Assembly: GCF_001677475.2 (NCBI RefSeq)
Contig: NZ_CP015229.1
Origin: Escherichia coli
Lineage (GTDB): Bacteria; Pseudomonadota; Gammaproteobacteria; Enterobacterales; Enterobacteriaceae
DNA: 64,000 bases
Strand: one strand, 5' to 3'
Part shown: positions 60,641-62,233 of the stretch, piece after piece
Numbering within the stretch: position 1 is the stretch's first letter
Layout of the letters: each line of letters begins with the position of its first letter
Notes under the pieces: generated by a model
What the model saw: only the letters and a program-made list of their open reading frames with translations
The model's database searches: none
What the model was told of the DNA's origin: nothing
Translations under genes and position numbers: made by a program

Positions 60641-60886
60641 ATGAGCGACATTATCAACCTGGTACCGAATAAATGGGTGACTGAGCAGAACCTGATCGCA
60701 GTCACCGGATTAAGGCCAGGAACCATTGAACGAGCCCGCCGCGAGTCATGGTTCGCCGGCCGCGAATATATGCATGTTTCACCCGATGGAAACCCAAAGC
60801 CAAACAGTGAATGCATGTACAACACAGAAGCCATTAATCACTGGATCGAACAGCAAGCATCAAAACAGCCGGGTGCTCATTCATGA
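60641..60886 (+). CDS. Excisionase-like protein (lambda Xis-like motif)
   Basis: 81-aa ORF directly upstream of the integrase; TIERARRESWFAGREYMHV resembles lambda Xis ETVRRWVRE...GREYLFH. Confidence 0.6.
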   Translation: MSDIINLVPNKWVTEQNLIAVTGLRPGTIERARRESWFAGREYMHVSPDGNPKPNSECMYNTEAINHWIEQQASKQPGAHS

Positions 60887-60931
60887 TGAACGGGTTATGC
60901 TTATCAGGCTCTTGGACGTCAGGAGGGGATA

Positions 60932-62233
60932 ATGGCTAAATCAGCATACCCAACAGGCGTTGAGAACCACGGAGGAACTCTCCGCATATGGTTCATCTAT
61001 AAAGGCAGCCGGGTTCGTGAAAGTCTCGGCGTGCCGGATACACCAAAAAACAGAAAGATCGCTGGCGAGCTACGCGCGTCGGTGTGCTTTTCGATTAAGA
61101 CCGGTAACTTCAATTATGCGGCCCAGTTTCCGGACTCACCTAATCTGAAAAGATTTGGCGTGGAGAGTAAGGAAATAACCGTGCTGGAACTAGCGAACAA
61201 GTGGCTTGAACTGAAGCGTATGGAGATCAGCACCAACGCGATGTCACGCTATGCATCTATAGCGCGCAACATGGTGCCCAGGATTGGTGGGGACAGGCTG
61301 GTATCTGCGGTAACGCAGGAAGATCTGCTGTTTATCAGGAAGGAATTGCTGACCGGTTATCACACGCTGAAAGTCGGGCAGAAAACGCCGGTTAAGGGCC
61401 GCTCAGTCAGAACGGTCAACAACTACATGAAGACCATGGGCGGGATGTTTAAGTTTGCCGCTGATAGCGGTTATGTACGGGTGAATCCGTTCACCGGGAT
61501 CGCCATGCTTAAGCGGTCACGATGCGAGTCTGACCCGCTGACGCGCGATGAGTTTGTCAGGTTGATTAACGCCTGCGCCCACCAGCAACTGAAAAACATG
61601 TGGTCTCTTGCCGTCTACACCGGCGTGCGCCACGGAGAACTTGTGTCGCTGGCCTGGGAAGATATCGACATGAAAGCGGGTACGATGATGATCCGCCGGA
61701 ACCACACGTTAACGAAGGAATTCACCCTTCCGAAAACAGAGGCCGGGACTGACCGTATCATCAACCTCATTCAGCCAGCGATCGACGTGCTGAAGAGCCA
61801 GGCCGAATTAACACGCCTGGGTAAGCAGTATCAGGTTGAGGTGAAACTGCGCGAGTATGGCCGAACCGATGTGCATCCGTGCACGTTCGTGTTCAACCCG
61901 CAGATCGCTTCGCGTAACAGCCGTGCCGGGCATCATTACGCAGTGGGGTCGATCAACCAGTCATGGGAGGCAGCAATGCGGCGCGCCGGGATTCGCTATC
62001 GCAGAGCATACCAGTCCCGACACACGTATGCATGCTGGTCGTTGGCTGCCGGTGCCAACCCGAACTTCATCGCGAAGCAAATGGGCCACACCGACGCGCA
62101 AATGGTTTACCGGGTGTACGGATCCTGGATGGCTGAAAATAACCAGGACCAGGTACTCATCCTCAACCAGAAATTGAGTGAGTTTGCCCCATCCATGCCC
62201 CACGCCGTGGGAACGGATGGTTATTATTTATAA
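60932..62233 (+). CDS. Tyrosine-type site-specific integrase (phage/island integrase), intact
   Basis: 433-aa ORF; C-terminal catalytic region HTYACWSLAAG...MGHTDAQMVYRVYG with the tyrosine nucleophile context; ends 20 bp from the fliE stop. Confidence 0.88.
   Translation: MAKSAYPTGVENHGGTLRIWFIYKGSRVRESLGVPDTPKNRKIAGELRASVCFSIKTGNFNYAAQFPDSPNLKRFGVESKEITVLELANKWLELKRMEISTNAMSRYASIARNMVPRIGGDRLVSAVTQEDLLFIRKELLTGYHTLKVGQKTPVKGRSVRTVNNYMKTMGGMFKFAADSGYVRVNPFTGIAMLKRSRCESDPLTRDEFVRLINACAHQQLKNMWSLAVYTGVRHGELVSLAWEDIDMKAGTMMIRRNHTLTKEFTLPKTEAGTDRIINLIQPAIDVLKSQAELTRLGKQYQVEVKLREYGRTDVHPCTFVFNPQIASRNSRAGHHYAVGSINQSWEAAMRRAGIRYRRAYQSRHTYACWSLAAGANPNFIAKQMGHTDAQMVYRVYGSWMAENNQDQVLILNQKLSEFAPSMPHAVGTDGYYL
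62165..62205 (+). repeat. 41-bp direct repeat (copy 2), candidate att core inside the integrase 3' end
   Basis: Identical to 56904..56944. Confidence 0.7.

What the first reader, a model, noticed from the sequence alone, without database searches (positions are those of the whole stretch)
60641..62233. Lambda-type xis-int recombination module appears intact
An 81-aa protein with a lambda-Xis-like motif (TIERARRESWFAGREYMHV) lies 46 bp upstream of a full-length 433-aa tyrosine integrase with an intact C-terminal catalytic region. As I recall, K-12 has only a defective integrase (intG) at this position. An intact module implies the islet may still be excisable.
Basis: partly seen in the sequence, partly recalled or inferred. 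Interest (0 to 1): 0.45.

Follow-up and report, generated by a model that had tools for sequence, protein, structure and literature searches.

The report
Intact integrase-excisionase in prophage stub
The two genes are a genuinely intact integrase/excisionase pair, but they are the last survivors of a lambda-like phage that inserted into the end of the flagellar gene fliE and then lost about 40 kb, and in this strain an insertion sequence has split one of the two attachment sites, so excision is doubtful; this is an ordinary kind of prophage remnant.

Summary
Int has an arm-binding domain and a tyrosine-recombinase domain, with R233, K268, R363, H386 and Y396 all present. It is 95.8% identical to the integrase of Enterobacter phage CobraSix.

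The pair belongs to the Rac IntR/XisR subfamily. It ends a 5.27-kb remnant (57003-62274) of a CobraSix-like lambdoid prophage integrated in the last codons of fliE. Joining the two junctions and removing the IS rebuilds CobraSix attP. One deletion (junction 58780/58781, fusing an SRAP gene to a dam 3' end) removed everything except a HEPN-like moron, two small ORFs, xis and int. The K-12-type intG relic is also present, at 56780-56964.

Excisability here is doubtful. An IS3-family element (57033-58261, 3-bp duplication AAG) sits 30 bp from the crossover. It separates the core from conserved candidate arm sites (TGYCCCA-N4-TGCCCCA). A conserved terminator-like hairpin precedes xis, and no phage regulator remains.

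IS-free copies exist in other E. coli. They are almost identical inside diverged flanks, so recent mobility of the 4-kb stub is not excluded. Verdict: a new member of a known kind, of low interest.

The parts
56780..56964 (+). Relic 3' fragment of an older integrase gene (the K-12 intG type). It forms the chromosomal side of the left junction.
   Evidence: Aligns with the unoccupied-site fragment of strain 2018-05-2CC (L003) and with K-12 intG. It is 79% identical to the 3' end of int at 62079-62219.
56924..56941 (+). Copy of the tandem motif TGCCCCATCCATGCCCCA inside the relic arm.
   Evidence: Pattern search: 3 matches in the window against 0.01 expected by chance.
56990..57002 (.). Left junction core TGCATGCTCATCAC. 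The crossover lies within CATCAC (56997-57002).
   Evidence: The sequence is identical to the unoccupied attB up to 57002 and identical to CobraSix attP from 57003 onward.
57003..57032 (+). First 30 bp of the int-distal att arm (phage DNA), ending in the AAG target of the IS.
   Evidence: Contiguous with 58265 onward in CobraSix attP and in the IS-free loci L006-L008, L010 and L012.
57033..58261 (-). IS3-family insertion sequence, 1229 bp, with orfA (57920-58204) and orfB (57051-57863), imperfect terminal inverted repeats, and a 3-bp target duplication AAG (57030-57032 and 58262-58264).
   Evidence: Inverted repeat I1. ORFs. RefSeq annotates near-identical copies as 'IS3 family transposase, programmed frameshift'. 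Empty-site alleles are seen in L006-L008, L010 and L012.
58265..58427 (+). Remainder of the int-distal att arm. It includes the candidate arm-type sites TGTCCCACCCATGCCCCA (58353-58370).
   Evidence: 87% identical to CobraSix attP. The motif lies at +118/+129 from the crossover in 4 reconstructed attP sites and sits at the corresponding place in the distal arms of 9 IMG/VR loci. Conservation of the arm ends just after the motif.
58428..59018 (+). Chimeric ORF. The 5' part is a phage SRAP (YedK-like) gene and the 3' part is the end of a phage N6-adenine methyltransferase gene. The deletion junction is at 58780/58781.
   Evidence: PHROG 1599 on residues 1-120 and DNA methyltransferase PHROGs on residues 102-170. 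NCBIfam. DNA is 92% identical to the full-length SRAP gene at the left end of the 30EVA1 prophage up to 58781, and 81-83% identical to the 3' end of CobraSix gp41 from 58780.
59015..59833 (-). 272-aa low-GC cargo gene, weakly HEPN-like (contains an RNAIAH motif).
   Evidence: PADLOC RTasHEPN 3.8e-8. Pfam HEPN_RiboL-PSP 0.0018. GC content 34%. An 85%-identical homologue lies between int/xis and dam in a Citrobacter prophage.
60016..60249 (-). 77-aa ORF of unknown function, upstream of the HEPN-like gene on the same strand.
   Evidence: PHROG 27283, 5e-21.
60343..60591 (+). 82-aa ORF with two CxxC pairs and no family match.
   Evidence: ORF list. No hits in Pfam, PHROGs, NCBIfam or PADLOC.
60600..60629 (+). 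Terminator-like hairpin plus T-run, 11 nt upstream of xis.
   Evidence: Pattern scan. Fold. The same element is present with compensatory stem changes in CobraSix and the 30EVA1 prophage.
60641..60886 (+). xis: an excisionase of the DUF1233/XisR family, 81 aa.
60932..62233 (+). int: a heterobivalent tyrosine integrase, 433 aa. Catalytic set is R233, K268, Y360 (occupying the first-His position), R363, H386 and Y396.
62185..62202 (+). Candidate arm-type sites TGCCCCATCCATGCCCCA in the int-proximal arm, inside the 3' coding end of int.
   Evidence: At -90/-79 from the crossover in all four reconstructed attP sites. Pattern statistics.
62261..62274 (.). Right junction core TGCATGCCCATCAC. The crossover lies within CATCAC (62269-62274).
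62254..62598 (-). fliE. Its last four codons and stop (62254-62268) are supplied by phage DNA, giving FliE S101G.
   Evidence: Translations of the window, K-12, L003, 30EVA1 and L008. Junction sequences.

Best explanation
The xis-int pair is the surviving recombination module of a CobraSix-like lambdoid temperate phage.

Shown:
- The phage integrated by site-specific recombination into the last codons of fliE, carrying its own copy of the fliE 3' end.
- A single internal deletion then removed nearly the whole phage genome. Its size (about 40 kb) is inferred from intact relatives of about 47 kb.
- What remains is a 4.04-kb stub: distal att arm, SRAP'::dam' fusion, a HEPN-like moron, two small ORFs, xis, int and the proximal att arm.
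- In this strain's lineage an IS3-family element later inserted 30 bp from the crossover in the distal arm, making the stub 5.27 kb.

Inferred mechanism:
- Int is a lambda-type heterobivalent tyrosine recombinase of the Rac IntR subfamily. Its N-terminal domain would bind the tandem TGYCCCA-N4-TGCCCCA repeats found in both arms. Its C-terminal domains would cleave at the core around CATCAC using Y396.
- Xis (the XisR/DUF1233 family) would direct excision.
- Both proteins look functional. In this copy excision is probably strongly impaired, for three reasons. The IS moves the distal arm sites 1.23 kb away from the core. xis is preceded by a terminator-like hairpin. No phage promoter, antiterminator or regulator remains.
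For: Module intact:
- Pfam and PHROG matches.
- Int is 95.8% identical to the CobraSix integrase and 86% to the IdasGreatGrand integrase.
- K268, R363, H386 and Y396 are invariant in 60 family representatives at 26-96% identity, and R233 is present.
- R233 aligns with the residue mutated in the Tn1549 Int R225K crystal form. Y396 lies next to the residue mutated in the Y379F form.
- The AF2 model (pLDDT 91.4) matches full-length lambda Int and Tn1549 Int.

Prophage origin and att sites:
- The window's right-junction left half, joined to its left-junction right half with the IS removed, aligns colinearly with CobraSix attP (298/326 identities, 91%, counting a 12-nt gap that came from a mis-set cut). 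The residual mismatches amount to about 95% identity.
- Other E. coli carry full lambdoid prophages with homologous xis-int abutting fliE. One of these has a full-length SRAP gene at its far end.
- Left junctions in other hosts carry a plain fliE 3' end.

Deletion: chimeric ORF and junction.

IS is secondary: five loci have the identical stub without the IS and with a single AAG.

Arm motif.

Terminator.

Family function: Rac IntR/XisR excision has been demonstrated experimentally (PMC4632033).
Against: - No functional data exist for this Int or Xis, or for any member closer than Rac (42% identity).
- That the IS blocks excision is an analogy with lambda's requirement for P-arm sites close to the core. 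It has not been tested.
- The arm-site assignment rests on conservation only. The proximal copy lies in coding sequence, so its conservation is confounded.
- The hairpin is modest (6-bp stem; z-score -1.15 in a 61-nt context). An internal promoter for int cannot be excluded by the simple scan.
- The near-identity of the stub across diverged backgrounds fits recent mobility at least as well as passive decay.
Confidence: 0.8

Rival explanations
1. The 4-kb stub is itself a still-mobile miniature integrative element. In IS-free strains Int and Xis excise it and re-integrate it at fliE after transfer. That would explain its spread among E. coli lineages. The window's copy would be a recently disabled one.
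For: - The stub interior shows 0-2 differences in about 4.0 kb between strains whose immediate flanks differ by 0.35% on the right and 0.5-2.4% on the left. For L006 about 20 differences were expected and 0 were seen.
- Both att junctions and both arms are whole in L006-L008, L010 and L012.
- Two junction variants exist that differ only at 62228 and at 62268, next to the crossover.
- The exact Int occurs on 23+ contigs.
Against: - Every copy is at the same locus.
- The deletion-junction 32-mer was not found in GTDB species representatives, IMG/VR or JGI metagenomes, so no circular form or second site was seen.
- The same pattern arises if the islet spreads, or its flanks are replaced, by ordinary homologous recombination in this recombination-prone flagellar region.
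- There is no replication, packaging or transfer function in the stub.
- xis lies behind a terminator-like hairpin.
Confidence: 0.25
2. The module only looks intact. int and xis are young pseudogenes-in-waiting that encode inactive proteins or are never expressed. They persist only because the deletion is recent.
For: - There is no diversity within the stub from which to detect selection.
- The regulatory context is lost and a terminator-like hairpin lies upstream of xis.
- The stop codon has mutated, giving a 2-aa extension.
- The canonical first His of the active site is Tyr (Y360).
Against: - Y360 is the family norm (40 of 60 representatives, including Rac IntR, whose prophage excises experimentally).
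- All invariant residues are kept.
- The 18 substitutions relative to CobraSix Int spare the conserved columns.
- The C-terminal tail beyond residue 425 is variable in the family.
Confidence: 0.12
3. The recombinase pair has been domesticated as a host switch acting on fliE or flagellar expression through reversible excision.
For: The attachment site lies inside fliE, and integration changes FliE residue 101. Rac excision similarly alters TtcA.
Against: - fliE stays intact in both states, and S101G is conservative. From the left-junction DNA of other hosts, their native fliE 3' end reads by eye as ...GMQV.
- The islet is rare: 0 of 5,426 complete E. coli genomes carry it.
- There is no sign of a regulatory connection.
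Confidence: 0.03

Closest known systems
Integration module of Enterobacter phage vB_EclS_CobraSix (NC_071003; genus Cobrasixvirus) and related fliE-inserting prophages of the Enterobacter cloacae complex, Citrobacter and E. coli
   Same: Int is 95.8% identical in amino acid sequence. The order xis-int-attP is the same. attP is colinear and about 95% identical once the IS is removed, ignoring a 12-nt gap caused by a mis-set cut. The same fliE-3'-end mimic is present, as are the same tandem TGCCCCA repeats in both arms and the same hairpin upstream of xis.
   Different: Here only about 4 kb of the roughly 47-kb phage remains. Xis is only 60% identical. The cargo between dam and xis differs (a HEPN-like moron in place of gp34-gp40). 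Int carries a 2-aa C-terminal extension. An IS splits the distal arm.
Rac prophage IntR/XisR of E. coli K-12 (experimentally excising cryptic prophage; PMC4632033)
   Same: Same integrase subfamily: Arm-DNA-bind_2/DUF3596 plus a catalytic domain with Y in the first-His position. The excisionase is of the same DUF1233 type. The att site lies inside a host gene whose end is re-supplied by the phage, changing a few residues.
   Different: Int is 42% identical and Xis 31%. The target is different (ttcA 5' end versus fliE 3' end). Rac retains about 23 kb, and the host (RpoS) regulates xisR. Nothing comparable is known here.
Bacteriophage lambda Int/Xis
   Same: Three-domain heterobivalent integrase. 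The model aligns with full-length lambda Int (1Z1B) over about 419 columns at probability 1.0. The gene order is xis then int then att, and arm sites lie in both att arms. The arm sites are known for lambda and only candidates here.
   Different: Sequence identity is only about 14-21%. Xis falls in Pfam DUF1233 rather than giving any lambda Xis hit. The att core lies inside a host gene, and the proximal arm lies inside the int coding sequence.
K-12 intG pseudogene (annotated in RefSeq as 'cryptic prophage PR-G')
   Same: Same chromosomal site next to fliE. Homologous to the last roughly 140 nt of int (79-82%), including a perfect copy of the tandem motif.
   Different: It is a fragment of about 160-280 nt without any catalytic region. 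In the window it coexists with the intact int, at the opposite junction (56780-56964).

Membership tests
Tyrosine recombinase (Pfam PF00589, phage integrase) | Catalytic-domain match | tested here: met
   PF00589 E 6.9e-18 on residues 203-396. PHROG 1 integrase 3.1e-78. Foldseek probability 1.0 to Tn1549 Int, lambda Int and XerA.
Tyrosine recombinase (Pfam PF00589, phage integrase) | Catalytic set Arg-Lys-His-Arg-His/Trp-Tyr | tested here: met
   R233, K268, R363, H386 and Y396 are present. K268, R363, H386 and Y396 are invariant in 60 representatives. The first-His position is Y360, which is the majority state of this subfamily (40/60) and also the state in Rac IntR.
Lambda-type heterobivalent integrase | N-terminal arm-type DNA-binding domain | tested here: met
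   Arm-DNA-bind_2 PF12167, E 1.5e-24, residues 7-70. A three-stranded sheet plus helix is modelled at pLDDT >90, and the model aligns to full-length lambda Int.
Lambda-type heterobivalent integrase | Arm-type binding sites in both att arms, distinct from the core | tested here: inconclusive
   Tandem TGYCCCA-N4-TGCCCCA lies at -90/-79 and +118/+129 in 4 reconstructed attP sites and at the corresponding place in the distal arms of 9 IMG/VR loci. The window has 3 matches against 0.01 expected. Binding was not tested.
Lambda-type heterobivalent integrase | Catalyses attP x attB and attL x attR recombination | not testable with these tools
   Only indirect evidence is available: the junctions in this window and in other genomes are exactly those expected from attP x attB exchange.
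Rac IntR / XisR subfamily | Int with DUF3596-type arm domain paired with a DUF1233 excisionase encoded immediately upstream | tested here: met
   Identity is about 69% to the phiP27 and Stx-phage 'IntR' integrases and 42% to K-12 IntR.
Lambda Xis family proper | Match to the lambda excisionase profile | tested here: not met
   The Pfam scan returns only DUF1233. The resemblance to lambda Xis is limited to a few motif residues (W, E, R, W, GREY) in a MAFFT alignment.
Complete (inducible) lambdoid prophage | Repressor/immunity, replication, lysis and virion genes between the att sites | tested here: not met
   Only six ORFs plus an IS lie between 57003 and 62274, and none matches such functions. 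Intact relatives span about 45 kb.
Phage satellite (PICI/P4-like) | Integrase plus own regulator, primase/replicase and packaging-hijack genes | tested here: not met
   No such genes are present. The content is explained by one deletion of a phage genome.
IS3-family insertion sequence (the 57033-58261 element) | Terminal inverted repeats, 3-bp target duplication, orfA/orfB arrangement | tested here: met
   Inverted repeat I1. AAG is duplicated, and IS-free alleles carry a single AAG. orfA and orfB are present. RefSeq annotates near-identical copies in the same way.

The most novel reading that the evidence does not exclude
The IS-free 4.04-kb unit (att arms, SRAP'::dam' fusion, HEPN-like gene, xis, int) may not be a dead remnant. 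It may be a functioning minimal integrative element that has recently moved between diverged E. coli backgrounds by its own Int/Xis, carrying a rare HEPN-type cargo gene. The conserved TGCCCCA-N4-TGCCCCA repeats would then be the arm-type sites of a whole fliE-targeting integrase clade.
Probability: 0.2. Interest if true: 0.45.

Novelty: new member of a known kind. Interest (0 to 1): 0.2.

Why it matters
Mainly for annotation and housekeeping.
- It explains what the K-12 'intG' fragment is: the scar of an older phage at a fliE-3' attachment site that CobraSix-like phages still use.
- It defines that attachment site, including its core, its extent and candidate arm sites.
- It shows that an intact-looking int/xis pair does not by itself predict mobility, because the att arms and the regulatory context must be checked too.
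- If the IS-free stub turned out to move on its own, it would be a convenient very small model of a lambda-type integrative element. There is no evidence for that yet.

Tried and rejected
- I first took the 19-nt identity TGCCCCATCCATGCCCCAC (D5) for the att core. I rejected this because the left copy stays chromosomal and the right copy stays phage-like for a further 55-70 nt. The switch point is at CATCAC inside fliE.
- My first attP reconstruction cut the right junction 11 nt too early. Coordinates were corrected.
- AF2 with the 6-sequence alignment gave an unusable model (pLDDT 45.8). It was repeated with 60 sequences (pLDDT 91.4).
- MAFFT misaligned the C-terminal motifs of lambda Int. 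Profile alignments to PDB chains and family-wide conservation were used instead. Y393 was rejected as the nucleophile because it is variable, present in only 9 of 60.
- Searches with the deletion-junction 32-mer in GTDB representatives, IMG/VR and JGI metagenomes found nothing.
- The HEPN-like protein has no match in the phage collection.
- Literature searches for intG/fliE, for CobraSix and for the fliE integration site gave nothing relevant.
- L011, where the stub is joined at 58506 to unrelated DNA, was set aside as a probable chimeric metagenome assembly.
- The satellite/PICI reading was rejected for lack of any replication or packaging genes.
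Full report
**1. The observation**

The ORF list shows an 81-aa ORF at 60641-60886 and a 433-aa ORF at 60932-62233 on the + strand, 45 nt apart. fliE (62254-62598, minus strand) and fliF follow directly.
- The small protein matches Pfam DUF1233 'putative excisionase' end to end (E 5.4e-33) and the PHROG excisionase family 539.
- The large protein has an Arm-DNA-bind_2 domain (residues 7-70, E 1.5e-24) and a Phage_integrase catalytic domain (203-396, E 6.9e-18).

**2. Is the integrase intact?**

Similarity to known integrases:
- 95.8% identical over its full length to the integrase of Enterobacter phage vB_EclS_CobraSix.
- 86% identical to that of Escherichia phage IdasGreatGrand.
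- About 69% identical to the 'IntR' integrases of phiP27 and many Stx phages.
- 42% identical to K-12 Rac IntR.

I aligned 60 family representatives taken from a scan of 1.84 billion cluster representatives.
- K268, R363, H386 and Y396 are invariant.
- R233 is present in 50 of 60, and in the window protein.
- The position of the canonical first histidine is Y360, which is the majority state (40/60) and also the state in Rac IntR.
- Y393, the other tyrosine near the C-terminus, is variable, so Y396 is the nucleophile.

Profile alignment to solved structures gives independent markers.
- R233 lies opposite the residue changed in the Tn1549 Int R225K crystal form.
- Y396 lies next to the residue changed in the Y379F form.
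- The same profile aligns its position 396 with residue 302 of the integron integrase chain 2A3V.

An AlphaFold model built on the 60-sequence alignment is confident (pLDDT 91.4). It matches Tn1549 Int and full-length lambda Int, including the N-terminal domain. A first model from six sequences was unusable.

The protein is two residues longer than its closest relatives because their stop codon TAA reads TAT here. That tail is variable in the family. I conclude that the module is genetically intact.

**3. What the module belongs to**

*Intact relatives at the same site.* Other E. coli genomes have complete lambdoid prophages whose homologous xis-int (85% and 77% nucleotide identity) abut fliE in the same way. 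In strain 30EVA1 the far end of that prophage lies next to yedN and an 'integrase, partial' fragment. It begins with a full-length SRAP (YedK-like) gene.

*The K-12 relic.* K-12 and most E. coli have only a 160-280-nt integrase fragment, intG, next to fliE. In the window this relic is still present, at 56780-56964. It is 79% identical to the 3' end of the intact int.

*The switch points.*
- The left copy is chromosomal (identical to the unoccupied site) up to ...GCATGCTCATCAC (56990-57002) and then becomes phage DNA.
- The right copy is phage DNA up to ...GCATGCCCATCAC (62261-62274) and then becomes fliE.

*Match to a free phage attP.* I joined the right junction's left half to the left junction's right half and removed the insertion sequence. 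The result aligns colinearly with the attP region of the free phage CobraSix. BLAST gives 298/326 identities (91%). That figure includes a 12-nt gap caused by my first, slightly mis-set cut. Apart from the gap the identity is about 95%.

*The crossover.* In nine IMG/VR prophage contigs from other hosts, the same phage arm is joined to DNA that has no integrase relic and simply ends ...TTAAACCTGCATGCCCATCAC. I read this by eye as a native fliE 3' end.
- The attachment site is therefore the 3' end of fliE.
- The crossover lies within or at CATCAC.
- The phage supplies the last four codons and the stop of fliE. In this strain FliE ends ...VMGMQV instead of ...VMSMQV, that is S101G.

*Extent of the remnant.* The region between the junctions (57003-62274) is only 5,272 bp.
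- ORF 58428-59018 is a chimera. Its first ~118 residues are SRAP (92% DNA identity to the 30EVA1 prophage gene). Its tail is the C-terminus of a phage N6-adenine methyltransferase (81-83% DNA identity to the 3' end of CobraSix gp41).
- The switch is at 58780/58781.
- A Citrobacter freundii prophage shows the natural arrangement int - small ORFs - HEPN-like gene - dam. The window's segment from the dam 3' end to int is therefore contiguous ancestral phage DNA.
- One deletion thus removed everything from mid-SRAP to the end of dam. Its size, about 40 kb, is inferred from intact relatives of about 47 kb.

*What is left.* A low-GC 272-aa weakly HEPN-like gene, a 77-aa ORF (PHROG 27283), an 82-aa ORF with no matches, xis and int.

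**4. The insertion sequence**

A 1,229-bp IS3-family element occupies 57033-58261. It has imperfect inverted repeats, orfA and orfB, and a 3-bp AAG duplication.
- The exact integrase protein occurs on 23+ public contigs, all at this locus.
- Five of the loci read (L006, L007, L008, L010, L012) carry the same stub without the IS and with a single AAG. L007 is otherwise identical to the window over the 5.7 kb to the right of the IS site, with 2 mismatches in the 5.3-kb left flank.
- A sixth locus (L009) ends inside the IS.

The IS is therefore a late, lineage-specific event. It lies 30 bp from the crossover, inside the int-distal att arm.

**5. Candidate arm sites**

The tandem repeat TGYCCCA-N4-TGCCCCA occurs three times in the 64-kb window, where 0.01 matches are expected by chance:
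- in the 3' end of int (62185-62202);
- in the distal arm (58353-58370);
- in the relic (56924-56941).

In four reconstructed attP sites (window, CobraSix, IdasGreatGrand, 30EVA1) the repeats lie at -90/-79 and +118/+129 from the crossover. In nine IMG/VR loci the distal repeat sits at the corresponding place in a closely similar arm, and the sequences diverge completely just after it.

Together with the arm-binding domain of Int, this is the layout expected for arm-type sites of a lambda-like integrase. Binding is not shown. In the window the IS moves the distal repeats from +118 to about +1350.

**6. Expression context**

A GC-rich hairpin followed by TTTCTTTTT lies 11 nt upstream of xis. 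CobraSix and the 30EVA1 prophage have the same element with compensatory stem changes. Its stability alone is unremarkable.
- In a whole phage, antiterminated early-left transcription would presumably read through such an element. That is inference.
- The stub has no antiterminator, repressor or early promoter.
- The simple promoter scan found no good + strand promoter between the hairpin and int.

**7. How it most likely works**

The pair is a Rac-type version of the lambda system.
- Int bridges arm and core sites and exchanges strands around CATCAC.
- Xis (the same family as XisR, which stimulates Rac excision about 10-fold and was tested for att-site binding; PMC4632033) biases the reaction to excision.

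For this copy I consider excision strongly impaired.
- By analogy with lambda, the int-distal arm carries the sites that must sit within about 50-150 bp of the core for excision. I recall this from established lambda biochemistry. It was not tested here.
- A 1.23-kb insertion at +30 should prevent that architecture from forming.
- In addition, the left junction has T where the right junction has C immediately next to CATCAC (56996 versus 62268). If that base lies in the overlap region, it would be a further handicap.

**8. Open point**

The stub interior shows 0-2 differences in about 4 kb between strains whose flanks differ by 0.35% (right) to 0.5-2.4% (left).
- The only two differences (62228 and 62268) cluster at the right junction and define two variants.
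- Either the already-deleted stub has moved between backgrounds, by its own Int/Xis or by homologous recombination, or the flanks have been replaced around it.
- I could not separate these. No circular form or second site was found.
- None of 5,426 complete RefSeq E. coli genomes carries the stub.
- The 90% cluster of the integrase is dominated by the Enterobacter cloacae complex and Citrobacter. This fits a phage that came from those hosts. Its copy of the fliE end encodes GMQV, as does the native 3' end I read in the other hosts' left junctions.

**9. Verdict**

This is a new member of a well-known kind: a lambdoid prophage remnant with a surviving Rac-type int/xis module at a gene-3'-end attachment site. 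Interest is low. The only less ordinary possibility is that the IS-free 4-kb form is still mobile.

Noticed in passing
window 59015-59833 (-), with 60016-60249 (-) upstream: A low-GC (34%) 272-aa gene that is weakly HEPN-like (RNAIAH motif; PADLOC RTasHEPN 3.8e-8; Pfam RiboL-PSP-HEPN 0.0018). It is rare, with only 8 clusters among 5.8 billion proteins. An 85%-identical homologue sits between int/xis and dam in a Citrobacter freundii lambdoid prophage (L026/L027). It is a possible defence or toxin moron.
   Followed up: partly
window 56780-57002; K-12 L014 7503-7781; L003 7381-7521: The 'empty' E. coli site keeps a relic int-proximal arm with a perfect copy of the tandem TGCCCCA repeats. The left junction of any prophage inserted here therefore carries arm-like DNA on both sides of the core, which makes it attP-like. 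Whether this changes the Xis dependence of excision is unknown.
   Followed up: no
window 62228 and 62268; loci L008, L010, L011, L012: Two variants of the stub differ only by two SNPs 41 bp apart at the right junction. One is synonymous in int. The other is the base next to CATCAC, where it changes FliE residue 101 back to Ser. Nothing else differs in about 4 kb.
   Followed up: partly
window 53900-57002 versus 62254-64000: The left flank (yedK-yedL-yedN-intG') is at most 95.7% identical to any of 5,426 complete E. coli genomes. fliE-fliF reaches 99.1%. yedN (55513-56631) is an intact 372-aa LRR/DUF5503 gene here but a pseudogene in K-12. It is the most variable stretch between islet-bearing strains.
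   Followed up: partly
L011 1-5574 joined to window 58506: A metagenome contig joins the stub, from inside the SRAP' gene, to unrelated DNA encoding alpha-2-macroglobulin-like, FKBP and GH116 proteins. It is probably a chimeric assembly, but a rearrangement was not excluded.
   Followed up: partly
alignment A6, column of R233: Ten of 60 diverse family representatives have Ser instead of the first catalytic Arg, while every other catalytic position is invariant. This may be a subfamily with an altered active site or a local misalignment.
   Followed up: no
window 60600-60629; L004 ~6660-6700; L001 ~8975-9010: The hairpin plus T-run just upstream of xis is kept, with compensatory stem changes, in CobraSix and the 30EVA1 prophage. 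It is absent from the IdasGreatGrand/L002 lineage.
   Followed up: partly
window 58286-58330 (distal arm): The direct repeat TAGTCGTCG ... CAGTCGCCT lies between the IS site and the TGCCCCA repeats. It is conserved in the CobraSix-like arms and is a possible Xis- or host-factor-binding region. This was seen by eye in the outputs and was not tested.
   Followed up: no
window 4088-4395, 17654-17731, 35955-36256: Ordinary chromosomal RNA genes: MicL, C0465, and a tRNA-Leu/Cys/Gly cluster.
   Followed up: no
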